DNA of 64,000 nt from Bacillota bacterium (GTDB lineage Bacteria; Bacillota; Limnochordia; DTU080): assembly GCA_012840225.1 (NCBI GenBank), contig DULU01000052.1, forward strand, positions 20,483 to 84,482. Direction: 5' to 3'. The position numbers and the translations under genes are program-made. Shown piece after piece: positions 8,219-59,900 of the stretch (position 1 is its first letter; every line of letters begins with the position of its first letter). Under the pieces are notes generated by a model. The model saw nothing but the letters and a program-made list of their open reading frames with translations, was not told the origin of the DNA and did no database searches.

Positions 8219-8464
8219 GCGGTGCTTTTGTCTTTGTGATGCGGTGTCGCCGGCCAACCGGCGGCACCGGTCGACCGGGTAGATAGGCCTTCCCTTGCCG
8301 GGCACCGGCCGTTTGGCGTGACGCCCGGCTGTCTTTTAGCGGGATGAATATGATCGGTTCAGTGGAGAAAATGGAGGATAAGGCAACTACCTGGAGAAAT
8401 ATTCCATGTGTATGCCGGAGGTCGGCAGGACGCTATAGGGATATAAGGTGGGAGGACTCAACAT

Positions 8465-12030: not shown

Positions 12031-12062
12031 AGATATCATGGCAGCACAGAGGGGGAATAGGC

Positions 12063-36254: not shown

Positions 36255-36332
36255 TCGGACAGCGGTTTTCAGCCGGCGTTTGCTCCGGACCCAATAATAA
36301 AATAAATATAGAAAATAACAGAAATAGTGGTG

Positions 36333-36374
36333 AGAGCACCTGCACCGGTCGGCGCAGGTGCTCTTTCTTCTTTT
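36333..36374 (+). terminator. Rho-independent terminator
   Basis: AGAGCACCTGC-accggtcggc-GCAGGTGCTCT followed by TTCTTCTTTT. Confidence 0.65.
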
Positions 36375-36893
36375 CAGCTTTCAGCTTCCCTCAGCCGTCA
36401 GTTTCCCTCCGCTTATCTTTAATCTATGTTTTTATTGGTTTTATAGTTAAAAATTGCAATTGGCCGGAAGGAATTGGCGTTATCATGATGAAATATCGTA
36501 TAACTTCTGCAGCCGGATATGGGTACGAGGGGAATAAAAATAAAGTATGTAAGGTAATCCTTACATCCCTTGACGGGAAGCGATAAATTTACCAAAAAAG
36601 GCAGCGAACCAGCAGGAAAACGAGGATATTAGTAAAAACATACAAGGTGCATAGAGGGCGAAGGCTATAAGTCCGGATTAACTGGCGGTAGGGAAAGGAG
36701 GTGCACCCCGAGGTTTACCGCGAGTGCAGTGAATCACCGGACATAGCGGGGGGCTGGATGCCGGTAACGAAAGCGTCTGCTGTTCACTAATGGTAACAAG
36801 GTCACTTTAGTGAAGATATGGCGCTGTGTCCGGCCGGCAGTAAACATACGCATGCTCCTCTTAATAAATGAAAAAACTAAGGGGGTTCTATAA

Positions 36894-38240: not shown

Positions 38241-38279
38241 TCGTCAAGATTTAGAAACAGAGGATAGAAACTTCAAAAT

Positions 38280-38390
38280 AGAACCGCTGTAGCCTGTGCT
38301 GCAGCGGTTCTATTTGTTTAGCGCTCTTCGACCATAACTACTTATCCTTGTAGCAGCACCGGTGCTCATAGCCGGTGCTTTTCTTTTTTT
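38280..38390 (+). terminator. Two tandem intrinsic terminator hairpins
   Basis: GAACCGCTG...CAGCGGTTC + TATTTGTTT (38281-38320), and GCACCGG-tgctcatag-CCGGTGC + TTTTCTTTTTTT (38355-38390). Confidence 0.6.
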
Positions 38391-38748
38391 AGCCCTTGGC
38401 AGCAGTTGGGATAGTTAATAGTAATATCCAGGCACAGCATGCGCAGAAAAGAAGGAAAACAGGGAAATGCAAAGAAACAATGATATACAAGAATGCATTA
38501 CAGGCGGAAAGCTTGGCTGTACTGGCGGTGGAGAAAGGAGGTGTTCCCCACAAGTTGGCCGCAAGGGCAGTGATCGCCAAGCTGAAGCGGGGAGCACGGT
38601 ATTAAGGAAAATGAAGGTTGGGGCAGCAGTCGGTGTGGTCTGGAAGGAAACTTGGACACTTTCAGCGGCAGCCGGTGCCGCCACAGCCGACCATAAGACA
38701 TTTACCTGCTCCTCCTATAGATGAAGCAACAACTTAGGGGGTTTATTG

Positions 38749-40086
38749 ATGAAGAAGTTAGCATTAGCATTATGCTTGGTGTTGACCTGCAGTTTCCTGG
38801 CGTATGCCGAGACTGAGGTGAAAGTCGGGGTAGCCGGCGAGACCACCTGGACACCGGGCGCCATCGTGAAGACCGACGGACAAGGTTTAGTGCTGAAAGT
38901 GAACAGCAAGGGAGAAGGATGGACGGCAACGTATGACTCCATGACCCAGCGCTATAAGATCCGGGCCGGTGAAGGTCCCTTGCGCGTTGATCTCTGGGGT
39001 GCGGACAATGGGAATAAAATCCCGGAGCGTTTGTCCTATTTGCGGTCGGATTCCAACCTGAACTATATTCAGGGTAGTCAGGATTCCGCCGACAACAACT
39101 GGAAGATGCGCGTGAGCTACGACCATGACCTGGCCGACCTGGTCCTGGATTACGACAATGCCACCAACCAGGCTATCTTGGCGGCGCAGAAGAAAATCGC
39201 CGGCTTTGATTCCGCAGTGGCTATCCAGCGTTCCACCGATCCGACCAAAGATGAATCCATCATCGGCGGTTGGACAAGCGGTAAAATCGGTCCGGTGGGC
39301 GTAGTCGGCGTGGCCGCCGTGAAAGCCAACAACGGCGATACCACCGACGCCATGAGCATCGGTGCCAAAGCGACGTACACCATCAAGCCGCTAGATATCA
39401 ACACCATGGCTTATGTCTCCAAGCGCGGCAAGAATTTCGGCGATGTCACCACCCTTTACGCCGAAGCTTCGAAGAACATCATCAACGGTCTGGGTAATCT
39501 CTATGCTAAGGTGCAAAACGACACCAAAGCTTCCGACGGTACCGTCACCAACACCGTATATGGACGCGTCCGCCTGCGTGGCGACAGCGGCAGCAGCTAT
39601 GACTGGGATCTGGTCGACACCTACACCAGGCAGCTCGACTGGTTGAAGACCAAGACTTATGCCGGTCAGGTTTATGCCCAGAACACCACGACCAACGGGC
39701 AGACCACTCTGCAGCGGCTGTATGGTATTGCCACCGTCAAGATGGATGTCGGCAACGGCCTGTGGGTCAGACCCGAAGTCTATATTGAGCCGGTAAACTC
39801 CATCGACAAGAATACCGGTAAAGCGGTGACCAGAACGCTCGTCAACGGCAATGCTTACCTGAAGCTCACCGACCGGGTCTCCTTGGAGTCCAATGTCTCC
39901 TTTGAAAACAGGAACACCTTCACCAAGGGTCCGAGGACTGCGTATGGCGCCGCCGTCGGTTTCCAGATGGATCCCACGGATGCCCACATCCAGTCCGACA
40001 AGCAGGTTAAGCTGGCCTATAACTCCAGCACCGTGGACGAAGTGACCAACAACACCGCCACTTTGAGCTATATGCTGGTCTTCTGA
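38749..40086 (+). CDS. Predicted outer-membrane beta-barrel protein (paralog C)
   Basis: Signal peptide MKKLALALCLVLTCSFLAYA. C-terminus ATLSYMLVF. RBS TAGGGGGT 6 nt upstream of the ATG. Confidence 0.65.
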   Translation: MKKLALALCLVLTCSFLAYAETEVKVGVAGETTWTPGAIVKTDGQGLVLKVNSKGEGWTATYDSMTQRYKIRAGEGPLRVDLWGADNGNKIPERLSYLRSDSNLNYIQGSQDSADNNWKMRVSYDHDLADLVLDYDNATNQAILAAQKKIAGFDSAVAIQRSTDPTKDESIIGGWTSGKIGPVGVVGVAAVKANNGDTTDAMSIGAKATYTIKPLDINTMAYVSKRGKNFGDVTTLYAEASKNIINGLGNLYAKVQNDTKASDGTVTNTVYGRVRLRGDSGSSYDWDLVDTYTRQLDWLKTKTYAGQVYAQNTTTNGQTTLQRLYGIATVKMDVGNGLWVRPEVYIEPVNSIDKNTGKAVTRTLVNGNAYLKLTDRVSLESNVSFENRNTFTKGPRTAYGAAVGFQMDPTDAHIQSDKQVKLAYNSSTVDEVTNNTATLSYMLVF

Positions 40087-40167
40087 TAAGAAGATATTGC
40101 AGTTAGCCAAACAGATGGCCAAAGGGATTGCGAGGCTCTGGCCATAAGGCCATAGTCCTCCTGAAGT

Positions 40168-40212
40168 AAACCGCCGCCGCCGCAGCTGCTGCTGCGGCGG
40201 TTGGCGTTTGGG
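40168..40212 (+). terminator. Intrinsic terminator-like GC hairpin
   Basis: AACCGCCGCCGCCGCAGC-TGCT-GCTGCGGCGGTT followed by GGCGTTTGGG. Confidence 0.5.
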
Positions 40213-40289
40213 TGGATAGGCATAGCCGGCTGAGTTGTGTGGCGGCCGATTTGGGTCAAATGGAAATGGGGTGGGTGCTCATTTGCCTG

Positions 40290-40319
40290 TTGACGGGGGA
40301 ATAGGAGTAGTGGTATAGT
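40290..40319 (+). promoter_or_regulatory. Sigma-A-like promoter (TTGACG-N18-TATAGT) upstream of the 40453 gene
   Basis: -35 TTGACG (40290-40295), 18-nt spacer, -10 TATAGT (40314-40319), followed by an AT-rich ~130-nt leader. Confidence 0.45.
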
Positions 40320-40452
40320 AAAACTAACGTACTGATTGTCTTTGGGGAACAGATACAAAGATATTAAAAATAAATATAACCAAATAACTAACCTACATAA
40401 GCGGGGCGAAAGAGTGAGCGGAGCAAACCGGTCAGGCTGTCGGCAGCTTCTC

Positions 40453-42039
40453 ATGCTCATAAAGATCTTTTGGGTAGTGCTTGTTATGTCCGCTGTCGTG
40501 GTGTGGCGGGCGAAAGCGGCAGAGGTGCATGGCACGCTGGCACTGGAGGGCAGCTACAATCGCTTTACCGGGTGGCGATTTGCGGAAAGCGAAGCGAAGG
40601 TGACTTATAAGCCGGCTTGGTGGCGGAATGCCGAGTTGGCCATAACCTTCAAAGACAGCCGGGCAGCTCTGGGCTATAAGTGGCTCCTGGAAGATAAGGT
40701 TTGGCGCATCGCCACCTGGCAGGGGGTCTGTCGGGAGAGCGGTTGGCGGGATCCTTTTTCTTTGGTGTCGCTCAGCGGCGTTCCGGTGGCCCCTTGGCGC
40801 CTGCGCCTGGAGCACAAAACTTGGGGTCTTGGGAGCGATCTGGCCCCCTCGCATCATGCTCTGCACTGGCGGAAGAGTATGGGAAAAATGCGTATCGGCC
40901 TGCTTTTTACAGGTAGCGGTGCTGCGGCGGCGTCCTTACCTGACGACGATGAAGATGATGATGGGGAAAGTGATGAGCAAATCGGCGGCGATGGCGATGA
41001 TGAAGATGCCGATGATAACGGCAGTGTTGCCGCCGGAAGCTTATTCGGCGTAATATATGCCCGCTATGATAACGGCGGTTGGTATGGTGCTTTTTCGCTC
41101 GCCGGGAGCCGGGCGGGCGGGAGAGAAGCCGGGAGCGACGGCCAAACGCGGGGCGCTTATGCTTTTGAGCTCAGGCATAGAAGTGATCGCTTCTATATTT
41201 CCCTGGCGGATAAATATAAAGAAGCCGGCTTCAAAAATCCTGATAAACCCCTCAGCCGGGTAAGCAAATTCCGGGTAGGCTGGAGGATTGGAAATTTCAC
41301 CCTCTTCCTGGAGGAGAGGATAGAGGAGGAAGGTAAGCGGAAAAGATGGCAGGAACTGGCTTTGGGTGTGCGTCCCAAGGCCAGGGCCGGCCCCCTGTCT
41401 ACCTTGATCACGGAGCGCCTGGTGGCCGCCGGGGGACCACTCTCCTGGTTGGTGCGCTGGGAAAGGTTGGTAGCGCCATCTTCCCGGTGGACCATGCAGG
41501 TGGAAGTGCGCGGCCCCTGGCGATCCGGCAGCCAGGGTGATAGCCAAGGCGGCAGCCAGGGTGGCAGCCAAGGTGGTAGCCAAGGTGGTAGCCAAGGCGG
41601 CAGCCAAGGTGGTAGTCAGGGTGGCAGTCTGGGCGGCAGTCTGGGCGGCGGCTGGGGCTGGCGGCTGGTTTTGGCCGAAAACAGGGATACCTGGCTCAAC
41701 TGGTATGTCACCTTGCCGGGCGGGAAGAGGGTGCTCACCAAATATTCGGTAATGGCCTGGAAGACGGCCATTCTCTACCAGTTGGTGCTCCCCGGAGGCC
41801 GGCAAGTGGGAGGTGAGTTGGCCGGCGGCGCCGAATACCGGGACCGTGACCCACCGGCAGTCCCACCTGCTCTTATGATCAGCGGTACCTGGTGGTCATG
41901 GAAGGTGAAGGCCGCCAAAAAACTGAATGACCGGATAACGCTCGCTTGGGAATATGAGCACCTATATGCCGATGATCTGCCGGCCGGGGCGGTCTGGCGC
42001 GAAAGTGGGCAAAAATGGCATTTGCTGTGGCAGTTTTAA
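40453..42039 (+). CDS. Secreted beta-rich protein with (GGSQG)n and acidic tracts, C-terminal beta-signal-like ...LLWQF (putative OM protein)
   Basis: Signal-like MLIKIFWVVLVMSAVVVWRAKAAEV. Poly-acidic DDDEDDDGESDEQIGGDGDDEDADDNG. Ten-plus GGSQG repeats. Terminal Phe with W at -3 and L at -5. The start is uncertain (ORF opens at 40336). Confidence 0.5.
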   Translation: MLIKIFWVVLVMSAVVVWRAKAAEVHGTLALEGSYNRFTGWRFAESEAKVTYKPAWWRNAELAITFKDSRAALGYKWLLEDKVWRIATWQGVCRESGWRDPFSLVSLSGVPVAPWRLRLEHKTWGLGSDLAPSHHALHWRKSMGKMRIGLLFTGSGAAAASLPDDDEDDDGESDEQIGGDGDDEDADDNGSVAAGSLFGVIYARYDNGGWYGAFSLAGSRAGGREAGSDGQTRGAYAFELRHRSDRFYISLADKYKEAGFKNPDKPLSRVSKFRVGWRIGNFTLFLEERIEEEGKRKRWQELALGVRPKARAGPLSTLITERLVAAGGPLSWLVRWERLVAPSSRWTMQVEVRGPWRSGSQGDSQGGSQGGSQGGSQGGSQGGSQGGSQGGSLGGSLGGGWGWRLVLAENRDTWLNWYVTLPGGKRVLTKYSVMAWKTAILYQLVLPGGRQVGGELAGGAEYRDRDPPAVPPALMISGTWWSWKVKAAKKLNDRITLAWEYEHLYADDLPAGAVWRESGQKWHLLWQF

Positions 42040-50635: not shown

Positions 50636-50700
50636 CCCTCCTAACCTCCTAATCTCCTAATCTCCTGACCTCCTAACCTCCTGACCTCCTGACTTCCTGT
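50636..50700 (+). repeat. Tandem heptamer array (CCTCCTRA / TCTCCTAA, ~9 units) downstream of tsaD
   Basis: cctcctaacctcctaatctcctaatctcctgacctcctaacctcctgacctcctgacttcct. The complement is an array of AGGAG(G) Shine-Dalgarno-like units. Confidence 0.7.
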
Positions 50701-50955
50701 CCCCCTACCCTTCTGCCCTCCAGCCCTGCCCTACCCACCTCCCCGGAGCTGAGAATATATAAATTATTCTAACCGTCTTCTTCCTTAAAGAAGGAATAGG
50801 CTACCGTCTGTGGAAAAACCAACAAAGTCCACCCAAACGGTCAGTGATCAGAGTCGAAGGCTGTCTCATCGGGAAACATGGGGCCTTTTATCTGGACTGG
50901 GCTTGAGAATATAGGGAATAACGCAAGTTTCAATATTTTATGAGGGGGAACGGAG

Positions 50956-52146
50956 ATGCCGTCTCGCGCTGAACGTATGTCTCTCTTGGGAACGGAAAAT
51001 GCCTTCGAGGTGTTGGCCGAGGTGAAGAAGCTTGAGGCCGCCGGGCGCCATATCATCAGTTTCGCCATCGGCGAGCCTGATTTCGATACGCCGGTCAATA
51101 TTAAGGAGGCGGGCATAAAGGCCATCCGGGAGGGATACACCCATTACAACCCGTCGGCCGGGATTATGGAGCTGCGGCAAGCTATTGCCCGTTATATAGC
51201 CAAGACCCGCCATATCCATGTCGATCCGGAAGAAGTGGTGGTGACCCCGGGGGCTAAGCCGATCATATTTCATGGGATCCTGGCGACTGTAAATCCGGGC
51301 GAAGAGGTAATCTATCCCAATCCGGGTTTCCCCATCTATGAATCGGTGATCAGGTTTGTGGGAGCCAAGCCGGTGCCCCTCGCTTTGCGGGAGGACCGCG
51401 AGTTCTCCTTCGATGTGGATGAGCTGCGCAGCAAGATCAATCCCAATACCAAGTTGATCATCCTCAACTCGCCGCAAAACCCGACGGGAGGCTGCCTGTC
51501 GCAGAGCGATCTGGAAGCGGTGGCGGAGATGGCCCTGCGCTATGATTGCTGGGTGCTCTCCGATGAGGTATACTCCCGGATGGTGTTTGACGGGGAATTC
51601 TACAGCATCGCCACCATTCCGGACATGAAGGAGCGGACCATCATCCTCGACGGCTTCTCCAAGACCTACGCCATGACCGGATGGCGCATCGGCTTCGGGG
51701 TGATGCCCAAGTCGTTGGCTATCGATGTAGCTCGCCTCGAGACCAACTGTGAGTCGTGTACGGCCACTTTCACCCAGATAGCCGGAATTGAAGCTTTGGA
51801 AGGCCCCCAGGACGCTTCGGCCGCCATGGTCGCCGAATTCAAAGAGCGGCGGCGCCTGATTGTGGACGGTCTGAACGATATCCCCGGCTTCAAATGCCTG
51901 ATGCCTAAGGGAGCGTTTTATGTATTTCCCAATGTCTCCGAGGCCTGTCGGCGTTTGGGGTTGAGGGGAGCGAAACAGTTACAAGAAAAGCTTCTTTATG
52001 AAGGCAATGTAGCTGTGCTACCGCGCTCCTCCTTCGGTTCCAGAAACGAGGGCGAGACCGAGGAATATCTGCGGTTTTCTTACGCCACCTCCAGGGAAGC
52101 CATCGTCGAGGGCTTGCAGCGGATTAAAGAAGTGGTAGCGAAGTAG
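50956..52146 (+). CDS. Pyridoxal-phosphate-dependent aminotransferase, class I/II (AspAT-like)
   Basis: Class I fold motifs including GFSKTYAMTGWRIG (PLP-Lys) and N-terminal LGTENAFEVL. RBS GAGGGGGAA lies upstream. Confidence 0.8.
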   Translation: MPSRAERMSLLGTENAFEVLAEVKKLEAAGRHIISFAIGEPDFDTPVNIKEAGIKAIREGYTHYNPSAGIMELRQAIARYIAKTRHIHVDPEEVVVTPGAKPIIFHGILATVNPGEEVIYPNPGFPIYESVIRFVGAKPVPLALREDREFSFDVDELRSKINPNTKLIILNSPQNPTGGCLSQSDLEAVAEMALRYDCWVLSDEVYSRMVFDGEFYSIATIPDMKERTIILDGFSKTYAMTGWRIGFGVMPKSLAIDVARLETNCESCTATFTQIAGIEALEGPQDASAAMVAEFKERRRLIVDGLNDIPGFKCLMPKGAFYVFPNVSEACRRLGLRGAKQLQEKLLYEGNVAVLPRSSFGSRNEGETEEYLRFSYATSREAIVEGLQRIKEVVAK

Positions 52147-52204: not shown

Positions 52205-54241
52205 ATGGCGCTAGAGAAGAATCCTATCAGCCTTGTGCATTTTATGGCTTATCCTGGTCCGGGTAATACCCGCTCCGTGCAGAGAGGGGAAGCCAGGGCT
52301 GAGTACCTATTGCACACTTTGGAAGAGGTGCTGAATGATCCATATTTCCAGGGTGTGGAAATAACCTATATAAAGAATGATCAAATACGGGCCAAAGTGG
52401 CCGATCTGCTGAAAGCGTCGGGCAAAAGGGTGATATTCGGTGCCCAGCCCGTGCAGCTGATCAATGAGGACGGCCTCATTCCGCCCGGCGATATCTCTTG
52501 TCCCGACGAGGTCGGCCGGCGTCAAGCCGTGCAGCGGCTGAAAAAATGCCTGGAGCAGGCATATGAGTTAGGCGCGGTGGATTTCGGTTTGATAAGTGGC
52601 GCCGATCCTGGGGCGGCATCGGGTTTGGACAGGCGGGAAGCAGCCAAAACCCAACTTCTCAGATCTCTGCACGAATTGTGTGTGTATGCCGGAGAGCTGG
52701 CCCAAAAGCAGGGACGTACGCCCATCCGCATCACCTTGGAGCTTTTCGACCGCTCTACCGAACCGGGGCACAAGAACCAGCTGATCGGTCCGGCCAGGGA
52801 AGCGGTGGAGCTGGCTCGGATTATGCAGGATGCCTACGGCCATCGCAATTTCGGCTTGCTATATGATCTGAGTCATATGCCTCTCATCAAGGGGCGGAGC
52901 TTCAATGCCGAGACGCCTGAAGTGCTGCGGGAGTTGGCTCCCTTCCTCAATCATGTGCATATCGGTACCTGTGTTACCAATCCGGAGGACAAGCTATACG
53001 GCGACTCCCATCCTCGCCTGGACTATCCCGGCAGCGCCGTTACCCAGGAAATGCTGGCCGACTTCCTCAAAATGCTGGTGGATATCGGTTATGAGGGCGG
53101 CATCGGCTTTGAAGTGGTGCCATATGGGGACGAGCTTTCTTCGGCCGTGGTGCGCAGCACGCAAACCATCTTCGACATCGCCCGCAACCGGATCGATGTC
53201 AACTATTGCCTGGGAACCTTTTATTTCCAGCCTCGCCGCTTCTTCAACGAGACGTGGTTCGACATGCTGAACGAGTTGCGGGTTAGCCGGCCGAATGCCG
53301 TCGCCGAGGCTGCCGCCGCCCGCCGTCGCCGTTCCACCCTCACCGAGGACGGCAAACTGGTGATTGTGGCCGCCGACCATCCGGCCCGGCGGGTGACCCG
53401 CGTGGGGAGCGATCCCACCGCCATGGGCGACCGGATGAGTTATCTCGGGCGCATCGTCCGCACTCTCCTCGGTAAAGGCGTGGACGGGGTGATGGCCACA
53501 CCCGATATTATTGAAGAACTCCTGCTGATCGATGTCCTGCTCAAGGAGAAAGGCCGCAAGGAAGGCATTCTTGACGGCAAGCTGGTGATCGGTTCCATGA
53601 ACCGCAGCGGTCTGGCCGGCGTGGAATATGAGATGGACGACCGCCTCACCGCCATGACTGTGGAGCATTTGAAGCAGCTTAATTGCGACGGCGGCAAACT
53701 CTTGCTGCGCATTGATCCGGGGCGTCATTCCCGCTATTCTATCGCCACCATGGCCTATTGCGCCCAGGCGGTGAGCGACTGCCGCAAAGCCGGCTTGCCG
53801 GTATTTGTGGAGCCTTTGCCGGTGGAAGAGACGCCTGAGGGGTATAAAGTGGTGATGACGCCGGATGCCTTGATCCAGACCATCGGTGTGGCCACCTCGC
53901 TGGGCGGTTCAGCTCATCACATGTGGATCAAGGTACCGTATGTAAATGACTACCACCGGGTGGTAAAAGCGACCACCTTGCCCATTTTGATGTTGGGCGG
54001 GGCGTCCAAAGAAAATCCCTTGCCCACCATCAGGGAGTTTGAGCAAGGTATGGGCGAAGGTGCCAATGTGCGGGGCGTGATGGTCGGCCGGAATGTCCTC
54101 TACTGCGGCAAGGACGATCCCTTGGCCGTGGTGGAAGCGATCGCCATGATCGTGCACCAGGGCGCCGGCATGGATGAAGCTGTCCGCCATCTCGCCGCAG
54201 CCCGGGGCCGTTCCTACGACTGGTTTGAGACCCTCATTTAG
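52205..54241 (+). CDS. Two-domain fusion: N-terminal xylose-isomerase-like TIM-barrel (sugar phosphate isomerase/epimerase) + C-terminal class-I-aldolase-like (DeoC/LacD/Cgl0159-type) barrel
   Basis: N-terminal half (~1-330) has the sugar-phosphate isomerase/epimerase pattern (metal-binding E/D/H positions, GFEVVPYGDE). C-terminal half (~340-678) resembles DhnA/LacD-type class I aldolase-like barrels (KLVIVAADHP...GVDGVMATPD...KLLLRID...FVEPLP). Single uninterrupted 678-aa ORF. Confidence 0.55.
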   Translation: MALEKNPISLVHFMAYPGPGNTRSVQRGEARAEYLLHTLEEVLNDPYFQGVEITYIKNDQIRAKVADLLKASGKRVIFGAQPVQLINEDGLIPPGDISCPDEVGRRQAVQRLKKCLEQAYELGAVDFGLISGADPGAASGLDRREAAKTQLLRSLHELCVYAGELAQKQGRTPIRITLELFDRSTEPGHKNQLIGPAREAVELARIMQDAYGHRNFGLLYDLSHMPLIKGRSFNAETPEVLRELAPFLNHVHIGTCVTNPEDKLYGDSHPRLDYPGSAVTQEMLADFLKMLVDIGYEGGIGFEVVPYGDELSSAVVRSTQTIFDIARNRIDVNYCLGTFYFQPRRFFNETWFDMLNELRVSRPNAVAEAAAARRRRSTLTEDGKLVIVAADHPARRVTRVGSDPTAMGDRMSYLGRIVRTLLGKGVDGVMATPDIIEELLLIDVLLKEKGRKEGILDGKLVIGSMNRSGLAGVEYEMDDRLTAMTVEHLKQLNCDGGKLLLRIDPGRHSRYSIATMAYCAQAVSDCRKAGLPVFVEPLPVEETPEGYKVVMTPDALIQTIGVATSLGGSAHHMWIKVPYVNDYHRVVKATTLPILMLGGASKENPLPTIREFEQGMGEGANVRGVMVGRNVLYCGKDDPLAVVEAIAMIVHQGAGMDEAVRHLAAARGRSYDWFETLI

Positions 54242-54309
54242 TCGCTTCTCAGGAAGGTCACTTCTCAGGAAGGTCGCTTCTTAGGCAGGTTACTTCAGGA
54301 GGTTAGATT
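54242..54309 (+). repeat. ~4 x 16-17-bp tandem repeat (GTCRCTTCTCAGGAAG) ending in the deoR-family gene RBS/start
   Basis: tcgcttctcaggaag gtcacttctcaggaag gtcgcttcttaggcag gttacttcaggagg. Each unit ends in an SD-like AGGAAG/AGGAGG. The last unit supplies the RBS for the TTG start at 54310. Confidence 0.65.
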
Positions 54310-55071
54310 TTGTTTGCTGAAGAGCGCCGGAGAATGATAGCCGCTGATCTGCAGGTGCGGGGTCGGGTGCTGGCCGGCGAGCTGGCCAAGCGGTATGGTG
54401 TGACGGAAGAGACCATCCGGCGTGACCTTAAGTGGCTGGAAGCAGCGGGAAAAGCTGTCAGAACCCATGGGGGAGCGCTTTGGCGCGGCGAAGCCGGGCT
54501 GCTCCCCCCGCTCGCCATCCGGCAAGGCAAATCATACGCAGCCAAACGGGCCATCGGTGCTTACGCCGCCGGTTTAGTTAACGACGGCCAGGCGATATTT
54601 ATCGATTCGGGCAGCACGGCCCTGGAATTGGCCCGGTCCTTGCGCCAGAAGAAGAACCTGCATGTGGTGACCAATTCCCTGCTGGTGGCCAATGAGCTGG
54701 CCACCGGCGAGGGGATAGAGGTACATATGCCCGGGGGCACACTCCGGGCCGATGAGATGTGCCTGGTAGGCCCGGAAGCGGTGGCCGGACTGGCTCATTA
54801 TCGGGCCGATTTGGCCTTCATCAGCTGCGCCGGGGTAGATCCCAAAAGTGGTGTGGCCGTGTACAACTCCTTTCAGGCCGAAGTCAAGCGGGCGATGTTG
54901 CGCCATGCGGCCAGGCGGGTGCTGCTGGTGGATTCTACCAAGCTCGGACAGGTCGCCTTAGTACAAGTGGCGAAATGCGATGAATTCGACCTCATGATAA
55001 CCGACTCAGGAGCCGGAGAGGACAAAACGATTCTCTTCCGCCAGGCAGGCGTGGAAGTAGCGATCGCCTAA
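54310..55071 (+). CDS. DeoR/GlpR family transcriptional regulator
   Basis: N-terminal HTH (RRRMIAADLQVRGRVLAGELAKRYGVTEETIRRDLKWLE) and C-terminal DeoR sugar-phosphate-binding domain (IFIDSGSTALELA...VVTNSL). Confidence 0.8.
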   Translation: MFAEERRRMIAADLQVRGRVLAGELAKRYGVTEETIRRDLKWLEAAGKAVRTHGGALWRGEAGLLPPLAIRQGKSYAAKRAIGAYAAGLVNDGQAIFIDSGSTALELARSLRQKKNLHVVTNSLLVANELATGEGIEVHMPGGTLRADEMCLVGPEAVAGLAHYRADLAFISCAGVDPKSGVAVYNSFQAEVKRAMLRHAARRVLLVDSTKLGQVALVQVAKCDEFDLMITDSGAGEDKTILFRQAGVEVAIA

Positions 55072-55115: not shown

Positions 55116-56537
55116 TTATTCGTTCTTCGCCTTCAGTATCTTCTCACGGTAATTCGTCATCTGCTTCTCCAGATAATTAACAAGCAAATTGTAGCCGGTG
55201 AGATCCCGCAAAGGCGCCCATGGAATAGCCTGCTTTATCTTCTCCGTTATTCTGGCCAGGCTCAAGTCCTCCCACCTGAAGATAAGGAGCGTTATATTTC
55301 TTTCATTGCAGATCTTCTGCTTGGTCTTATCCAGCCTCTTCTGCTTGGCTACTGCCGATTGATTATATAGATCGGTCGCCCGATAATGCTGCTCTCCGTT
55401 GAACTCGCAGGCCACATTCTGCTTTTCATAATAGCGGTCGAAGTGCATCTGCTCATGAGTATATGGATTCTTTAAAAAATCGGGTGTGGCATTGTCGACG
55501 CCGTTATCCCACTCCAGGATCAGATTTAGGGCCTCCCGCATCAGAGCTTCGCCACGGAATTTGGCCCGGTAGAGATTGTGCTCTGCCTTCAGCATCTTGA
55601 TCCTTACCGGGTTGCTGATATAAAACAGCTTATCTTTCGTCTTTTTCATGGTGCGGATGTCGATCCACTCTTCATCGCGCAGTTTGAACAAAGCTCGGCG
55701 TACCGTCTTAACATTCAAGTAGAGCATCTTGGCAATACTGGTATATGTATAGGTGGCTTCACGGGAGCTGCGCTTATATTTCGGCAAGGTTTGCAAGGTG
55801 CCATATATCAATCTGGCCTGCGCACCTAGACGCGTATCATTGACCAAATCAACCGGTATATAAACCTTCTTGCAATAATTGTAACGCGGCGTGAAAATCG
55901 TGGCGGCTAAAGCCTGGCGGCGCTCCCGAGCCTGAGCCTGGATTTGGGCCTGGATCTGAGCTAACTGTGCCTGGAACTGCTCCTCGTTCAGTACCTGAGC
56001 CTGATTTATTTCCTGAGCTTGAGCCTGTGTTTGGAGGCCTTGATTGCCGACCTGTGGTGGGAATGGCGGGAGCTGCGTCTGTGCTTGATGCCAGGCATTG
56101 ACCTGACCTTGGATGGGAGGTTGGCTTTTCATTTGGGGATCATTTTGTATCGGGTAGAATGCTTGAGGGGGAGTGGGATGAGAAGGAGTATGGATTGACT
56201 GCGTATGGGTTGACTGCACCGGCGGTTTGATCCAGATCTCCGGCTGCACCAACCACTTGTGGATATAGAGCTGGGAAAGAGCACAGCATACAGTAGGCTT
56301 GGACAACCCGATTCGCTCAGCTATCCTTGCCGGGCAATAGAGCTGATCAGGATCAATGCGGGCATCGTTGACATCCAAGGCTAAAGCCATCCAAACCAAT
56401 TTGGCCGAATTGGACAAATCTGGCTCCAGCAGGAGGTCTTTTGGCACCCACACCACTTTATTAATATTGATGATTTTGCTTGCCATAAAGCAACCACGCT
56501 CCGATTCCCCGGCATGGCTGCGCGCAAGCGTTCTCAT
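55116..56537 (-). CDS. Foreign-looking protein: two tandem winged-HTH domains, Gln-rich linker, C-terminal DUF559/Vsr-like (restriction-endonuclease-fold) domain
   Basis: Two homologous HTH modules (residues ~20-95 and ~215-300). Q/A-rich coiled linker QAQAQEINQAQVLNEEQFQAQLAQIQAQIQAQARE. C-terminal CEFNGEQHY...D...K...L...G..LLIFRWEDL resembles the E-x-D-G-x-Q-H...R(F/I) pattern of DUF559/Vsr-like nucleases. Local GC is ~45-50% versus ~62% in the flanks. Confidence 0.6.
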   Translation of the reverse strand: MRTLARSHAGESERGCFMASKIININKVVWVPKDLLLEPDLSNSAKLVWMALALDVNDARIDPDQLYCPARIAERIGLSKPTVCCALSQLYIHKWLVQPEIWIKPPVQSTHTQSIHTPSHPTPPQAFYPIQNDPQMKSQPPIQGQVNAWHQAQTQLPPFPPQVGNQGLQTQAQAQEINQAQVLNEEQFQAQLAQIQAQIQAQARERRQALAATIFTPRYNYCKKVYIPVDLVNDTRLGAQARLIYGTLQTLPKYKRSSREATYTYTSIAKMLYLNVKTVRRALFKLRDEEWIDIRTMKKTKDKLFYISNPVRIKMLKAEHNLYRAKFRGEALMREALNLILEWDNGVDNATPDFLKNPYTHEQMHFDRYYEKQNVACEFNGEQHYRATDLYNQSAVAKQKRLDKTKQKICNERNITLLIFRWEDLSLARITEKIKQAIPWAPLRDLTGYNLLVNYLEKQMTNYREKILKAKNE

Positions 56538-56810
56538 TCTGCTTCTCCACTCTGGCTGTGAATCCTGCCGGCGTGAAATAAAAATTATAAAGGTCGTATA
56601 TAAAACAGATGCAATATTAATTGGAATATAATTACAGCACGTAATGTAATAATTACATGATGTAACAGGCTGTCGATGATGGCCACTATATAAAAACCTC
56701 CAGTTCAGACCGTATCAGTCCACGGATATGACCATCGTTTCCCTGCTCTCTGTATAAAAGTATGAATCGGTTTGGGCGTACCGATGAGAGGTTAGAGTTA
56801 AACTGGATAA

Positions 56811-57320
56811 CGATTCGGAATAGTGGCATTACGAGGTGGGAAATAACAATAGGCCGGATCTGGCAAAAGGCCAGCTCAGAAAATCCGGGCTTCGGGGTGA
56901 AGGTATTTGTTTTCTCCCCCTCAGAAGTCAGACTAATCCGGATGGTTCGGATGAGTGCCGGACGACAAATACGGCCGGGGATTGGGAATAGTGGCATTAC
57001 GAGGCGGGAAAAAACAATAGGCCGGATCTGGCGAAAGGCCAGCTCAGGAAATCCGGGTTTCGGGGAGAGGGTATTTGTTTTCTCCCCCTCAGAAGTCAGG
57101 CAAATCAGGAAGGTGTGGATGAGTGCCAGGTGGCAAAAATGGCAGACGATTGGGAATAGAGGCATTGCGGGGCGAAAAAAAACAATGGGCCGGATCTGGC
57201 AAAAGGCCAGCTCAGGAAGACCGGGTCTGTGGGTGAGGGTATTTGTTTTCTTCTCTTTGGATGTCAGGCAAATCAGAAAATGGTGCATAAATGATGGGGA
57301 GCGGGAGGCACAAGTGGATA
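56811..57320 (+). repeat. Three tandem copies of a ~169-bp non-coding repeat, each containing the hairpin CTGGCAAAAGGCCAG
   Basis: Units begin at ~56811, ~56981 and ~57149 (GATTGGGAATAGTGGCATTACGAGG...GGCCGGATCTGGCAAAAGGCCAGCTCAG...GGTATTTGTTTTCTCCCCCTCAGAAGTCAG) with ~85-90% identity between copies. ORFs on both strands across it are repeat artefacts. Confidence 0.85.
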
Positions 57321-57478
57321 TAGACCAAGCGAGAATTCGGGTATGTATTTTCTAGCATGGGTTTTATGGTGGGAAAGAATGCTAAACTGTTAGAAAGAAT
57401 GCACAGCTGCGGACCGGCTAAAGGTTCCGGTCAGAGGTTAAGGCGGAAAGTGGAGTAGATGCAGCTCTGGCTGTGGTT

Positions 57479-58288
57479 TCAGTTTTCGGCATCCTGGCTG
57501 GATGGACGGCGCCATTCATAGCGGTAACTGGGCAAGAGATCCTTCACGAAGGAATCTACCGCTTGCTCCAGGACGCCGGCTCTCACCTGGGGAACGGCAG
57601 TCCGTCTTAATTTGGGTAGGAGAGATTCCGGAGGTGGGGAGTCGTAGTGCCAGGTCAGTACTTCCAATTCGCTTTCTTCGTTGCTTTCGCTAACCTTTTT
57701 GGACCAGATTATTTCTCCCGTACCGGCATTGATGATTCTGACCTGGACCGTCAAGTGGATGTTGGTATTCAGGCTTGAATACCAGTTGGGAGATCTTCCT
57801 TCAGAAGTGGACCCGATGCGGTAGGGAACCTGTACATATATATCTTCCATATAATAGGTCACTTCGCCGGTGATCAAAACATCGCAGGAGAGAGCTTTAC
57901 CTAATCTAACCGCTGTTTCGGGACTGGTAGCCTCAACTGGGGTGATACCTAATTTAGCTAGGACGGCGGCGGTTGAAGCTCTGTCCTGGACGGTAAAATA
58001 CCCTGAGGAGGCGGCTACCTGGCCGAGCAAATCAGCGAATTCTATAGCAATCCCCGGATCATTGGTGGCGTTCACAAAATCGAGGATGGCGATGTTATTT
58101 ATGTCGCCTATGGGAGCTAACGGAGGGACGAGTACTCTGACTCGCTCTCCCATACATCCGGAGAGAAGCACCGCTAAACCACCTATTAAGCATAAGTAGA
58201 GGAAAAGCTGCCGGCGGTGTCCTGTAGAATTAAATGATCCGAAATACTCGGCCCAAAAATGCTCGGCCATGCGTTTTGCTTTATGCAT
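57479..58288 (-). CDS. Lipoprotein with TolB-N/LpoB/CsgG-like fold
   Basis: Lipobox LLSGC after a hydrophobic h-region. GDINNIAILDFVN...LITGEV pattern is reminiscent of LpoB/CsgG-type periplasmic lipoproteins. Confidence 0.5.
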   Translation of the reverse strand: MHKAKRMAEHFWAEYFGSFNSTGHRRQLFLYLCLIGGLAVLLSGCMGERVRVLVPPLAPIGDINNIAILDFVNATNDPGIAIEFADLLGQVAASSGYFTVQDRASTAAVLAKLGITPVEATSPETAVRLGKALSCDVLITGEVTYYMEDIYVQVPYRIGSTSEGRSPNWYSSLNTNIHLTVQVRIINAGTGEIIWSKKVSESNEESELEVLTWHYDSPPPESLLPKLRRTAVPQVRAGVLEQAVDSFVKDLLPSYRYEWRRPSSQDAEN

Positions 58289-58530
58289 GATTGCCTGCTG
58301 CCTCCGGATATTTATTACCCAGCAAACCTGCGCATATTACGATCCAACGATCCGGCAATCGGTAAAGTAAGTTCGAAGTGAAGTTCGGCGGATAGCTTCG
58401 GCGGGGAAACGGCGATATCCTGCTTTTTATGGGCATTTGTGCTTATTGTTGTGAAGGCGGAGGCTACCAAAAACAGGGAAAAGAAAAAAGAGAACGAATA
58501 ATATATGGCTTGTTGGTGGTCTGCATTGAC

Positions 58531-59033: not shown

Positions 59034-59900
59034 TTGATCGATGTAGCCTTAGTCCCTGGTGAAATTGTGGAGAAGAAGGTTTCGGCATCACAGGTGGTGG
59101 TGGTAATCGATGTGTTGCGCGCCAGCACTACCATCATCACCGCCCTTGAGGCTGGAGCGAGCAGTGTAATACCGGTGGTGGAAACGGAAGAGGCTATAAG
59201 TTTGAGCGCCTCTTTGGGAGAACAAACTGTATTGGGGGGCGAGCGGCAAGGCCGGCGCCTCTTGGGTTTTCATTTGGGTAATTCACCGCTGGAATATACG
59301 CCGGAGATTGTGCGGGGGCGGGTGGTGGTCATGACCACCACCAATGGTACCTTTGCTTTAAAGAAGGTGAAAGGGGCGCACGCTATTGCCGTAGCTGCTT
59401 TCCGCAATGCGGCGGCGGTGGCGGCGATGCTGAGAGCGCATCTATCCCAAGGCCGGCAGGTGTTATTGGTATGCGCCGGTACAGAACGCCGGTTTACGCT
59501 TGAAGATGCCTGCTTAGCCGGATTGCTGGTTGAATTGGTTACCGGTGGCAGTGAGCCCGGGGCGAGTGCATTGGTGAGTGGAAAGGAGTGCGAGAGGGCG
59601 GACGAAAAGGAGAGCGAGTGTGAGACGGAGAGCGAGTGTGAGATGGAGAGCGGAATAAGAGAAATATCCACCAGAGAAATATCCGCCTCGACGACCGGCC
59701 TCACCGACAGCGCCTGGGCGGCCTTGTCCTTATGGCGGGCGGTGGAGCGTAATCCCTATAATGCCGTCACCAGATCCAGGCATGGGCAACGCCTCATCGA
59801 GATGGGATTTGGGGCCGATGTGGAGTTTTGTGCTCGCTTGTCGGATTGCGACGTGATACCCATACTGCAGGACGGCCGCCTGATCAAATTAGGTGGATAG
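59034..59900 (+). CDS. comB: 2-phosphosulfolactate phosphatase family protein (ComB-like) with Cys/Glu-rich low-complexity insertion
   Basis: VVVIDVLRASTTIITAL...MTTTNGT...LVCAG motifs of the ComB family. Insertion ECERADEKESECETESECEMESGIREISTREIS near the C-terminus. TTG start. Confidence 0.6.
   Translation: MIDVALVPGEIVEKKVSASQVVVVIDVLRASTTIITALEAGASSVIPVVETEEAISLSASLGEQTVLGGERQGRRLLGFHLGNSPLEYTPEIVRGRVVVMTTTNGTFALKKVKGAHAIAVAAFRNAAAVAAMLRAHLSQGRQVLLVCAGTERRFTLEDACLAGLLVELVTGGSEPGASALVSGKECERADEKESECETESECEMESGIREISTREISASTTGLTDSAWAALSLWRAVERNPYNAVTRSRHGQRLIEMGFGADVEFCARLSDCDVIPILQDGRLIKLGG

What the first reader, a model, noticed from the sequence alone, without database searches (positions are those of the whole stretch)
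52205..55071. Large fusion enzyme (sugar-phosphate isomerase-type TIM barrel + class-I-aldolase-like barrel) with adjacent DeoR regulator and aminotransferase
A 678-aa single ORF joins an N-terminal xylose-isomerase-like TIM barrel (sugar phosphate isomerase/epimerase family) to a C-terminal DhnA/LacD/Cgl0159-type class-I aldolase-like barrel. These are usually separate genes. It is followed by a DeoR/GlpR sugar-phosphate-responsive repressor and preceded by a class I aminotransferase. This points to a compact, possibly uncharacterised sugar-phosphate or cyclitol/sulfosugar-type catabolic module. The same window also encodes a ComB-like 2-phosphosulfolactate phosphatase and a PGI/PMI, but linkage to those is speculative. 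The isomerase+aldolase fusion would channel an isomerisation directly into C-C cleavage.
Basis: inference. Interest (0 to 1): 0.5.

Follow-up and report, generated by a model that had tools for sequence, protein, structure and literature searches.

The report
Two-barrel aldolase–isomerase fusion with aminotransferase partner
A real, widely conserved but uncharacterised enzyme joins a metal-dependent sugar epimerase/isomerase barrel to a Schiff-base (class I) aldolase barrel, and its gene neighbours suggest an undescribed route that splits phosphorylated acid sugars into DHAP plus a three-carbon acid that ends up as serine or glycerate.

Summary
A 678-aa ORF (52205-54241, +) encodes an N-terminal AP_endonuc_2 barrel and a C-terminal Cgl0159-type class I aldolase barrel. 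It is flanked by a class I aminotransferase and a DeoR repressor. It is not an assembly artefact: more than 120 full-length protein clusters carry both domains, in Bacillota/Limnochordia, Thermotogota, Planctomycetota and Asgard/Bathyarchaeota archaea.

The Schiff-base lysine (K576) and an epimerase-type E-D-H-E site (E179/D221/H252/E303) are present. The only cross-phylum gene partner is the aminotransferase, found in about half of 47 non-redundant loci. DeoR occurs in a subset.

The N-barrel also exists as a stand-alone gene. There it is tightly paired with a glyoxylate/hydroxypyruvate reductase and often with a transketolase-like enzyme. Full operons add TRAP carboxylate transporters, KduI/IolB isomerases and assorted kinases.

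Best reading (inferred, about 0.4): a keto-acid-sugar phosphate is cleaved to DHAP plus tartronate semialdehyde. The N-barrel isomerises this to hydroxypyruvate, and the aminotransferase converts that to serine.

Links to ComB and sulfosugars reflect lineage-specific synteny. No experimental characterisation of this family was found.

The parts
50809..50833 (+). Candidate operator (imperfect inverted repeat tGTGGAAAAACCAACAAAGTCCACc) about 125-150 nt upstream of the aminotransferase start
   Evidence: Found at the same relative place as TGTGGAATTATTACTGAAAGCCACA (L003/L096) and TGTGGAAAAACCATATAAGCCCACA (L012/L092), and partly in L097. It lies in a conserved block AAGGAATA..TGTGGAA..CCACAC. 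It is a candidate only: binding is not shown.
50956..52146 (+). Class I (subgroup Ibeta-like) PLP aminotransferase, 396 aa; the conserved functional partner of the fusion
   Evidence: Pfam Aminotran_1_2 E 2e-71. Closest solved structures are the P. horikoshii aromatic/Asp aminotransferases 1DJU/1GD9 (E 2e-84), followed by AspAT and prephenate aminotransferases. No NCBIfam equivalog cut-off is reached (best 335 bits against 550). It is adjacent, on the same strand, in 11/20 genome loci and 12/27 metagenome loci, and it is the top family in the neighbour census (18 of 129 neighbours).
52205..54241 (+). 678-aa two-barrel fusion protein (whole ORF)
52205..53239 (+). N-terminal AP_endonuc_2 (xylose-isomerase-like) barrel, residues 1-345. 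The putative metal/catalytic residues and their codons are E179 (52739-52741), D221 (52865-52867), H224, H252 (52958-52960) and E303 (53111-53113), plus the family-specific G-D267-x-H269 loop.
53255..54241 (+). C-terminal Cgl0159-type class I aldolase barrel, residues 351-678. The Schiff-base lysine K576 has codon 53930-53932. Other family-wide invariant residues are D391, H392, R395, R410, R416, D427, D434, N466, R467, E476, D479, D495, K498, R502, E536, W574 and G628-R629-N630.
54241..54296 (+). 3.5 copies of a 16-nt unit (GTCACTTCTCAGGAAG, each holding CTTC-N4-GAAG), filling the gap between the fusion stop and the DeoR start. The last, degenerate unit carries the AGGAGG ribosome-binding site of the DeoR gene.
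   Evidence: Tandem Repeats Finder score 77, sequence, two exact CTTCTCAGGAAG copies against 0.29 expected. The array is absent from relatives, where the two genes abut or overlap. Its function is unknown and it is strain-specific.
54310..55071 (+). DeoR/GlpR-family repressor, 253 aa, TTG start; the probable sugar-phosphate-responsive regulator of the three-gene unit
   Evidence: HTH_DeoR plus DeoRC. The best NCBIfam match is AgaR at 190 bits against a 260 cut-off, so no equivalog is assigned. DeoR is present next to the fusion in about 12 of 47 loci: Limnochordia relatives, the CW345-type Bacillota and Thermotogota.

Best explanation
The gene encodes a bifunctional enzyme of an uncharacterised family, working in a catabolic branch for phosphorylated keto acid-sugars. 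Proposed mechanism: the C-terminal barrel is a DHAP-type class I aldolase. K576 forms the Schiff base with the 2-keto group of a ketose-1-phosphate-like end. The substrate would be a 5-keto-hexonate 6-phosphate (equivalently a 1-phospho-keto-uronate), and cleavage gives DHAP plus tartronate semialdehyde. This is the 2-hydroxy analogue of the reaction inferred for iol-cluster Cgl0159 proteins, in which DKGP gives DHAP plus malonate semialdehyde. The N-terminal metal-dependent barrel would then convert the reactive aldehyde, tartronate semialdehyde, into hydroxypyruvate by enediolate chemistry using E179 and E303. The co-transcribed class I aminotransferase would convert hydroxypyruvate to L-serine. 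In other lineages a glyoxylate/hydroxypyruvate reductase (to D-glycerate) or a transketolase-like ThDP enzyme takes this role. The DeoR protein would repress the unit until a sugar-phosphate intermediate accumulates. What is shown: the architecture, the intact catalytic residues, the conservation of the fusion and the partner statistics. What is inferred: the substrate identity, the order of the two reactions and the roles of the partners.
For: (1) The aldolase half is intact. K576 aligns with MJ0400 K184, and about 20 catalytic-core residues are invariant across all Cgl0159 context groups. (2) The family acts on ketose-1-P-like substrates. Stand-alone members sit either in iol clusters next to PfkB kinase, IolB, IolD, IolE, IolG and IolA (24 loci), or directly beside a PFK-family kinase (21 loci). 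The fusion clade is sister to the PFK-linked group, which includes the split loci L027, L146 and L032. (3) The stand-alone N-like barrel (53 loci) is followed or preceded, at a median gap of 24 nt, by a D-2-hydroxyacid dehydrogenase in 26 loci, and only 33 loci have enough flank to test this. That dehydrogenase is best matched by glyoxylate reductase (391-451 bits against a 455 cut-off). GhrB glyoxylate/hydroxypyruvate reductase ranks second or third, close to phosphoglycerate dehydrogenase. A 760-790-aa transketolase-like protein follows in 13 loci, and also follows the fusion in L119 and L175. (4) The three alternative partners are the aminotransferase (about half of the fusion loci), the reductase (L008, L014/L173, L097, L098, L027, L032) and the transketolase-like enzyme. 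From established enzymology, all three share one possible substrate, hydroxypyruvate. The aminotransferase and reductase co-occur in L008 and L097. (5) The context points to acid sugars. The Thermotogota operon is DeoR-fusion-PCC-DctPQM (TRAP)-ADP-dependent kinase-GFO/IDH/MocA-TK-like. L034 reads DctM-aldolase-PFK. The Bacillota operon KduI/IolB-fusion-DeoR-reductase-FGGY kinase mirrors IolB-IolC-IolJ. (6) Hydroxypyruvate isomerase is itself an AP_endonuc_2 enzyme. It is the best, though weak, NCBIfam hit of the N-domain and aligns over 221 columns by hhalign. The arrangement of ThDP enzyme, AP_endonuc_2 barrel and reductase parallels E. coli gcl-hyi-glxR.
Confidence: 0.4

Rival explanations
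1. The order proposed by the first reader: the N-barrel is a ketose or keto-acid 3-epimerase (IolO/UlaE/DTE-like) that adjusts the stereochemistry of the sugar (phosphate) before the C-terminal aldolase cleaves it. The aminotransferase or reductase then acts on the three- or two-carbon acid product directly, for example converting glyoxylate from a C5 acid sugar to glycine or glycolate.
For: Foldseek and profile hits are best to ketose 3-epimerases and IolO, and the His motif is epimerase-like. Both catalytic Glu residues typical of 3-epimerases are present in the window protein. The reductase partner's best model is 'glyoxylate reductase'.
Against: It does not explain why the stand-alone N-barrel is coupled to the reductase in about 26 of 33 testable loci that have no aldolase. 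It also does not explain why E179 can be lost in archaeal orthologues.
Confidence: 0.25
2. A central-metabolism enzyme: the C-domain is a novel class I fructose-1,6-bisphosphate (or other neutral ketose-bisphosphate) aldolase. The aminotransferase adjacency is housekeeping synteny spread by co-transfer, and the N-barrel has an accessory or structural role.
For: The closest stand-alone relatives are paired with PFK, sometimes in housekeeping surroundings such as adenylosuccinate synthetase in L028-L030. In Limnochordia the unit sits between tsaD and groESL. Glycolytic-type genes (ROK kinase, class II aldolase, PGI) follow it in Caldanaerobius, and ADP-PFK/GK kinases follow it in Thermotogota. 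The N-domain is degenerate in Gemmatales. Some sources already name the protein a DhnA-family FBP aldolase.
Against: The score against the archaeal class I FBP aldolase equivalog is only 52 bits against a 430 cut-off. TRAP transporter, KduI/IolB and reductase contexts are hard to reconcile with plain glycolysis. The presence of a DeoR repressor argues for an inducible catabolic unit. The N-barrel's catalytic residues are strongly conserved in most lineages.
Confidence: 0.15
3. A biosynthetic module related to archaeal ADH synthase. The C-domain condenses a ketone donor with an amino- or hydroxy-acid semialdehyde. The aminotransferase (or 2-hydroxyacid dehydrogenase) generates the 2-oxo acid. 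The N-barrel cyclises or dehydrates it, as an alternative entry to dehydroquinate or another amino-acid-derived product.
For: After Cgl0159, MJ0400 ADH synthase is the next-best structural and sequence match. The aminotransferase is closest to aromatic and prephenate aminotransferases. AP_endonuc_2 enzymes include dehydroshikimate and inosose dehydratases. The alternation between aminotransferase and 2-hydroxyacid dehydrogenase fits any 2-oxo-acid intermediate.
Against: The ADH synthase equivalog score is 43 bits against a 299 cut-off. The DeoR repressor, kinases, transporters and glycosidases in the operons indicate catabolism. The reductase partner resembles small-substrate glyoxylate/hydroxypyruvate reductases.
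Confidence: 0.05
4. The fusion is an artefact: a frameshift or assembly error joined two separate genes.
For: None was found.
Against: The identical protein lies on independent contigs. More than 120 full-length clusters from several phyla share the architecture, and 47 independent genomic loci carry it. The model has a confident inter-domain arrangement, pTM 0.86.
Confidence: 0.01

Closest known systems
Cgl0159 (PDB 3FOK; Pfam PF22649), a structural-genomics protein from Corynebacterium glutamicum. From my own recollection of locus-tag mapping it is probably cg0198 in the iol cluster. One paper calls cg0198 a 'conserved hypothetical protein' (PMC4609165).
   Different: Cgl0159 is a 307-aa single-barrel protein. 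Its relatives sit in iol operons with the PfkB kinase IolC, IolB, IolD, IolE and IolA, and they form clades distant from the fusion clade. The window protein carries an extra N-terminal barrel and has no iol genes nearby.
DhnA-type archaeal class I aldolases: MJ0400 ADH synthase (2QJG), Thermoproteus tenax FBP aldolase (1OJX), E. coli LsrF, LacD and YihT
   Different: Identity is only 17-23%. All NCBIfam equivalog scores are far below their cut-offs. The position of the catalytic Tyr146 of the T. tenax enzyme, recalled from the literature, could not be mapped here. E536 is an invariant candidate general acid/base (inference).
Ketose 3-epimerases and relatives in AP_endonuc_2: D-tagatose/D-psicose 3-epimerase, L-ribulose 3-epimerase, UlaE, and TM0416/IolO 5-keto-L-gluconate epimerase
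   Different: Identity is 15-20%. Equivalog scores are 20-49 bits against cut-offs of about 300. There is an extra conserved G-D-x-H loop and an N-terminal 'MA(Y/F)PGP' motif. The barrel is fused to an aldolase, and as a stand-alone gene it is paired with a glyoxylate/hydroxypyruvate reductase.
Hydroxypyruvate isomerase Hyi (E. coli b0508, in the gcl-hyi-glxR operon) and the Hyi-family protein YgbM (1K77)
   Same: It belongs to the same superfamily. It is the best NCBIfam hit of the fusion's N-domain. hhalign covers 221 columns including three catalytic motifs. The operon logic is analogous: ThDP enzyme, barrel, reductase.
   Different: TIGR03234 scores 32 bits against a 353 cut-off. hhalign probability is 60%. 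Hyi has G-H-x-Q where the N-domain has x-x-H. So the N-domain is not a member of the Hyi family, and the similarity of function is inferred from context.
The terminal steps of myo-inositol catabolism: IolB isomerase, IolC kinase, IolJ aldolase, IolA
   Same: The proposed logic is the same: a uronate-type isomerase, a kinase, a DHAP-releasing aldolase, and processing of a three-carbon acid aldehyde. KduI/IolB and a kinase flank the fusion in L014, L098 and L173.
   Different: Canonical B. subtilis IolJ is a class II aldolase. No IolD, IolE or IolG genes are present. The product would carry a 2-hydroxyl (tartronate semialdehyde, not malonate semialdehyde) and would be handled by the fused barrel plus an aminotransferase or reductase, not by IolA.

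Membership tests
Cgl0159-like family (Pfam PF22649), within the DhnA/DeoC class I aldolase superfamily | Sequence match above the curated Pfam gathering score | tested here: met
   246.5 bits against a cut-off of 27, residues 383-645.
Cgl0159-like family (Pfam PF22649), within the DhnA/DeoC class I aldolase superfamily | (beta/alpha)8 barrel superimposable on 3FOK | tested here: met
Cgl0159-like family (Pfam PF22649), within the DhnA/DeoC class I aldolase superfamily | Schiff-base-forming lysine at the position of MJ0400 K184 | tested here: met
   K576 aligns with K184. It is invariant in 19/19 fusions and in 76 of the 78 grouped family members.
Cgl0159-like family (Pfam PF22649), within the DhnA/DeoC class I aldolase superfamily | Aldolase activity with covalent DHAP intermediate | not testable with these tools
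   This needs borohydride trapping or enzyme assays. No family member has been characterised in the literature searched.
iol-type DKGP aldolase role of Cgl0159 proteins | Location in an iol operon (iolB, iolC, iolD, iolE, iolG, iolA) | tested here: not met
   The window has none of these genes. The fusion clade is separate from the iol-type clades.
AP_endonuc_2 (xylose isomerase-like TIM barrel, PF01261) | Sequence match above the gathering score, and the fold | tested here: met
AP_endonuc_2 (xylose isomerase-like TIM barrel, PF01261) | Glu-Asp-His-Glu metal/catalytic set at the barrel's C-terminal face | tested here: met
   E179, D221 and H252 align to DTE and TM0416, and E303 aligns to Hyi. 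Caveat: E179 is Cys or Val in 3 of 19 orthologues, and the set is lost in Gemmatales.
Hydroxypyruvate isomerase (TIGR03234) | Equivalog score at or above 353 bits, and the Hyi motif pattern | tested here: not met
   32.1 bits. hhalign probability is 60%, with a different His motif. The proposed Hyi-like function therefore rests on context, not on membership.
Ketose 3-epimerases and IolO (NF041099, NF051856, NF007360) | Equivalog score at or above about 300 bits | tested here: not met
   23 bits for the fusion and 35-49 bits for the stand-alone N-like proteins.
Archaeal class I FBP aldolase (NF040816) and ADH synthase (TIGR01949) | Equivalog score at or above 430 and 299 bits respectively | tested here: not met
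   52.5 and 43.1 bits, and only partial C-terminal matches.
DeoR/GlpR transcriptional repressors | N-terminal HTH_DeoR plus C-terminal DeoRC sensor domain | tested here: met
   E 2.8e-12 and 2.5e-51. No equivalog is reached: AgaR scores 190 against 260. The effector and operator were not tested.
Class I (AspAT-like) aminotransferases | Aminotran_1_2 domain over the full length | tested here: met
   241 bits over residues 32-390. The closest structures are 1DJU and 1GD9. Substrate specificity cannot be tested here.

The most novel reading that the evidence does not exclude
The fusion defines an undescribed catabolic route for acid sugars, a 'phospho-keto-uronate / 5-keto-aldonate-6-P aldolase' route. 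It would yield DHAP plus tartronate semialdehyde, and the toxic aldehyde would be isomerised on the same polypeptide to hydroxypyruvate. That product would then be funnelled directly into serine, D-glycerate, or a decarboxylating ketol transfer. The aminotransferase-fusion cassette would have been exchanged between Bacillota, Thermotogota and Asgard archaea.
Probability: 0.3. Interest if true: 0.7.

Novelty: new variant of a known kind. Interest (0 to 1): 0.5.

Why it matters
Both barrels belong to well-known superfamilies. However, neither the Cgl0159 family nor this N-barrel subfamily has an experimentally defined reaction, and the fusion is widespread in anaerobic digesters, sediments and Asgard archaea. 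If the proposed chemistry holds, it would add a new way of degrading uronic or keto-aldonic acids, alongside the isomerase, oxidative and reductive routes. It would assign function to PF22649. It would explain a recurrent pair of barrel and glyoxylate/hydroxypyruvate reductase. It would also give a direct sugar-acid-to-serine link in organisms whose carbon metabolism is mostly inferred from MAGs. A cultured carrier exists (Caldanaerobius fijiensis DSM 17918), so the idea can be tested directly.

Tried and rejected
(1) Literature. 'Cgl0159' gave no papers. 'cg0198' appeared only as a conserved hypothetical protein. The iolJ and C. glutamicum papers, two anaerobic inositol papers, the tartronate semialdehyde/hydroxypyruvate isomerase search and the 5-ketogluconate/class I aldolase search all gave nothing on this family.

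(2) AFDB50 fold search: the library was not available.

(3) Single-sequence PDB search with the N-domain was nearly empty. The profile search was needed.

(5) The promoter and terminator scan found no more than chance.

(6) No inverted repeat of 8 nt or longer lies in the intergenic regions. The repeated TGAGAATATA motif upstream of the aminotransferase is not conserved in relatives.

(7) The sulfosugar/ComB link was rejected. ComB plus the cyclophilin-like gene is Limnochordia-only synteny.

(8) An amino-sugar (GalNAc) idea, prompted by GH123 neighbours and the AgaR-like DeoR, was not pursued. GH123 occurs in one Asgard lineage only, and the aminotransferase is of the alpha-amino-acid type.

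(9) A search for C-domain residues that distinguish carboxylate-bearing from neutral substrates found nothing clear-cut.

(10) My first greedy ORF filter lost genes in high-GC loci and was replaced by unfiltered clustering.


Full report
1. What is in the sequence.

The window contains three co-directional genes. A class I/II aminotransferase lies at 50956-52146 (396 aa). A 678-aa ORF lies at 52205-54241. A DeoR-family regulator lies at 54310-55071 (253 aa, TTG start). The gaps between them are 58 nt and 68 nt.

Pfam places AP_endonuc_2 on residues 48-305 of the large ORF (E 1.2e-13). It places the Cgl0159-like family PF22649 on residues 383-645 (E 3.2e-73), and DeoC/LacD sits exactly at threshold. 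No NCBIfam equivalog is approached. The best scores are class I FBP aldolase at 52 bits against a 430 cut-off, ADH synthase at 43 against 299, hydroxypyruvate isomerase at 32 against 353, and IolO at 23 against 300.

The only close solved structure is the uncharacterised Cgl0159 protein (3FOK, E 9e-56, query residues 351-652).

2. The fusion is real and old.

The identical protein lies on independent ENA and JGI contigs from a biogas-fermenter metagenome. The 120 best 90%-identity clusters all carry both domains at full length, with 45-100% identity. They come from Limnochordia and other Bacillota MAGs, the cultured Caldanaerobius fijiensis, Promethearchaeota/Lokiarchaeota, Sigynarchaeota and Bathyarchaeota. 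Scans of species-representative genomes and of metagenomes added Thermotogota (Mesoaciditoga, Athalassotoga), Gemmatales and further uncultured bacterial MAGs (the apparent Anaerolineae full-length match, L026, resolved into a stand-alone C-domain gene). In all they gave 47 non-redundant fusion loci. Conservation is continuous through the linker.

3. Catalytic residues.

In the phmmer alignment K576, in the motif W-I-K-V-P-Y, pairs with K184 of MJ0400. From my recollection of the literature, K184 is the Schiff-base lysine in that enzyme. K576 is invariant in all fusions.

A core of about 20 residues is conserved in every context group of the Cgl0159 family. It comprises D391, H392, R395, R410, R416, D427, D434, N466, R467, E476, D479, D495, K498, R502, E536, W574, K576 and G628-R629-N630.

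In the N-barrel, a profile search aligns 'ITLE179LFDR', 'LLYD221LSH224M' and 'LNHVH252IG' with three motifs of D-tagatose 3-epimerase and TM0416: the catalytic Glu, the metal Asp with the substrate His, and the metal His. E303 aligns with the last Glu of E. coli Hyi.

The window protein therefore has a complete epimerase/isomerase-type site. There are exceptions elsewhere. E179 is Cys or Val in three archaeal orthologues. The Gemmatales fusions have lost E179, H224, D267, H269 and E303.

4. Gene neighbourhoods of the fusion.

De novo clustering of all ORFs around the fusions found one partner that crosses phyla: the aminotransferase. In nearly every case it lies within 3 kb, and always on the same strand. 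It is present in 11 of 20 genome loci and 12 of 27 metagenome loci, of which about 20 have enough upstream flank to show it. These loci include Limnochordia, Caldanaerobius, two unclassified bacterial MAGs, Sigynarchaeota and Promethearchaeota.

An unbiased Pfam census covered 129 same-strand neighbours within 2.6 kb in 43 loci. It ranks Aminotran_1_2 first (18), followed by DeoR (8) and 2-Hacid_dh (4). Next come ComB (4, Limnochordia only) and tRNA-Thr_ED (4, Asgard only). KduI/IolB (3), TAL/FSA (3), PCC (3) and DctP (2) follow.

The aminotransferase is an Ibeta-type enzyme closest to the P. horikoshii aromatic/Asp aminotransferases and to prephenate aminotransferases. It is not an amino-sugar aminotransferase.

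5. The two halves as separate genes.

Stand-alone Cgl0159-like genes (66 loci) fall into two main types. The first is iol operons with the PfkB kinase, IolB, IolD, IolE-like, IolG-like and IolA-like genes (24 loci). The second is genes directly adjacent to a PFK-family kinase (21 loci). Some of the second type carry a FucI/AraA-like isomerase and a mutarotase (Bacteroidota). Others carry FGGY kinases, SDRs, ABC transporters, or a TRAP DctM gene (L034).

A neighbour-joining tree makes the fusion C-domains one clade, with a single Hodarchaeota stand-alone gene nested inside. This clade is sister to the PFK-linked group, and the iol-type clades are distant.

Stand-alone N-like barrels (about 305 aa, 34-39% identity, 53 loci) retain all catalytic residues. 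They are paired, at a median gap of 24 nt, with a D-2-hydroxyacid dehydrogenase in 26 loci, and only 33 loci have enough flank to judge. In four lineages that dehydrogenase is best matched by archaeal-type glyoxylate reductase (391-451 bits against a 455 cut-off). GhrB glyoxylate/hydroxypyruvate reductase ranks second or third, with phosphoglycerate dehydrogenase close behind. A 760-790-aa transketolase-like protein follows in 13 loci, and an aldehyde dehydrogenase occurs in 4.

Split versions of the fusion exist. L027 reads AP_endonuc_2, N-like, reductase, aldolase, PFK. L146 reads N-like, aldolase, PFK. The Asgard locus L032 reads reductase, aldolase, PFK.

6. Complete operons.

L097 reads aminotransferase, fusion, DeoR, reductase. 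L173, L014 and L098 read KduI/IolB, fusion, DeoR, reductase, FGGY kinase, with an ILVD/EDD-family dehydratase and a sugar ABC system nearby.

L175 and L176 read a 415-aa gene of unknown function, then DeoR, fusion, PCC and DctP-DctQ-DctM. An ADP-PFK/GK kinase, a GFO/IDH/MocA oxidoreductase and a transketolase-like gene follow. Their intergenic gaps are short.

TRAP systems characteristically import carboxylates (established knowledge), so at least that lineage feeds the enzyme with an acid sugar.

7. Inference.

The Cgl0159 family looks like a set of DHAP-releasing class I aldolases for ketose-1-phosphate-like substrates made by assorted kinases.

The N-barrel's partners are the key clue. A reductase of the glyoxylate/hydroxypyruvate type, an alpha-amino-acid aminotransferase and a transketolase-like ThDP enzyme are interchangeable or co-occurring. 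From general enzymology, all three can use hydroxypyruvate.

An AP_endonuc_2 enzyme that supplies hydroxypyruvate is known: Hyi, which interconverts tartronate semialdehyde and hydroxypyruvate. The arrangement of ThDP enzyme, barrel and reductase mirrors E. coli gcl-hyi-glxR.

For an aldolase product to become a 2-oxo acid in a single isomerisation, the aldehyde must be tartronate semialdehyde. That implies a 5-keto-hexonate-6-P (1-phospho-keto-uronate) substrate. This is the 2-hydroxy analogue of the DKGP cleavage inferred for iol-type family members. It also fits the KduI/IolB, kinase and TRAP contexts.

I therefore propose the sequence: aldolase (C-barrel), then isomerase (N-barrel), then aminotransferase to serine, under DeoR control. 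Confidence is about 0.4 for this specific chemistry. It is about 0.8 for the general statement that this is a bifunctional class I aldolase plus metal-dependent isomerase/epimerase in an inducible sugar or acid-sugar phosphate pathway.

8. Caveats and rivals.

Sequence and fold do not favour Hyi over 3-epimerases.

PFK pairing, housekeeping surroundings and glycolytic neighbours keep a neutral ketose-bisphosphate or FBP aldolase role alive (0.15).

An ADH-synthase-like biosynthetic role is weakly possible (0.05).

The window itself encodes no kinase, isomerase, reductase or transporter of the recurrent kinds. About half of all fusion loci show none of the three partners.

9. Regulation.

No promoter or terminator signal exceeds chance. 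An element TGTGGAA-N11-13-CCAC(A/C)C, inside a conserved block, lies upstream of the aminotransferase gene in the window (50809-50833), L003/L096, L012/L092 and partly L097. Wherever the contig extends far enough to tell, these lineages carry the DeoR gene. This is a candidate operator only.

The gap between the fusion and the DeoR gene in this strain is filled by 3.5 copies of a 16-nt unit. This array is absent from relatives, where the two genes abut or overlap.

10. Novelty.

Public annotations call these proteins 'TIM barrel protein', 'Cgl0159 family (beta/alpha)8-fold protein' or 'DhnA family FBP aldolase/sugar phosphate isomerase'. No experimental work on the family was found.

The finding is a new variant built from known kinds of barrels. 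It has a testable but unproven pathway hypothesis and is of moderate interest.

Noticed in passing
window 50637-50721: A tandem array of an 8-nt unit (CCTCCTAA / CCTCCTGA, about 10.6 copies) lies in the tsaD-aminotransferase intergenic region, immediately after the tsaD stop. Its function is unknown.
   Followed up: no
window 54241-54296: There are 3.5 copies of a 16-nt unit GTCACTTCTCAGGAAG between the fusion stop and the DeoR start. Each unit holds a CTTC-N4-GAAG mini-palindrome, and the last unit overlaps the DeoR ribosome-binding site. The array is strain-specific: relatives have abutting or overlapping genes.
   Followed up: partly
window 55116-58300: A block of about 3.2 kb with lower GC (0.48-0.51, against 0.58-0.60 in the flanks) is inserted between DeoR and the cyclophilin-like/ComB pair, which are adjacent in relatives L003 and L008. 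It holds a 473-aa Gln-rich protein with a weak HTH match (minus strand). It also holds 2.8 copies of a 168-nt tandem repeat (56810-57276) that produces mirror ORFs on both strands, and a CsgG-family lipoprotein gene.
   Followed up: no
window 34983-42039: Four consecutive same-strand ORFs (423, 448, 446 and 567 aa) have no Pfam match at E<=1e-4. They lie upstream of a MalK-type ABC ATPase and the PGI/PMI gene.
   Followed up: no
window 59034-59900: The ComB-like 2-phosphosulfolactate phosphatase is 288 aa here, against 244 aa in relatives. It carries an acidic Glu/Cys/Ser-rich low-complexity insertion (…ECERADEKESECETESECEMES…).
   Followed up: no
L023 and L025 (Gemmatales), match 10001-12031 / 10001-12043: These are fusion orthologues whose N-barrel has lost the catalytic set (E179S, H224V, D267T, H269Y, E303A), while the aldolase half stays intact. 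This suggests a purely structural N-domain in that lineage.
   Followed up: partly
L129, L144, L156, L166, L171 (metagenome contigs), around 8001-8885: A conserved operon reads aldehyde dehydrogenase, glyoxylate/hydroxypyruvate-type reductase, stand-alone N-like barrel, 790-aa transketolase-like protein, XdhC. It is preceded by CobT/VWA-type genes. This is an uncharacterised module in its own right.
   Followed up: partly
L028-L030 (Chloroflexota), around 9940-12300: A stand-alone Cgl0159-like aldolase plus a PFK pair sits next to DsbB and adenylosuccinate synthetase, which is a housekeeping context. The Cgl0159 family may supply the glycolytic aldolase in some Chloroflexota.
   Followed up: no
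L044 (Hodarchaeota), 10025-11080: A stand-alone C-domain gene nests inside the Asgard part of the fusion clade, next to a sulfatase. This suggests secondary fission or loss of the N-barrel.
   Followed up: no
L006, L106, L107, L121 (Promethearchaeota): In this Asgard lineage the fusion is always followed by a free-standing tRNA-Thr_ED (threonyl-tRNA editing domain) gene. In L006 it is preceded by two GH123 genes. The significance is unknown.
   Followed up: no
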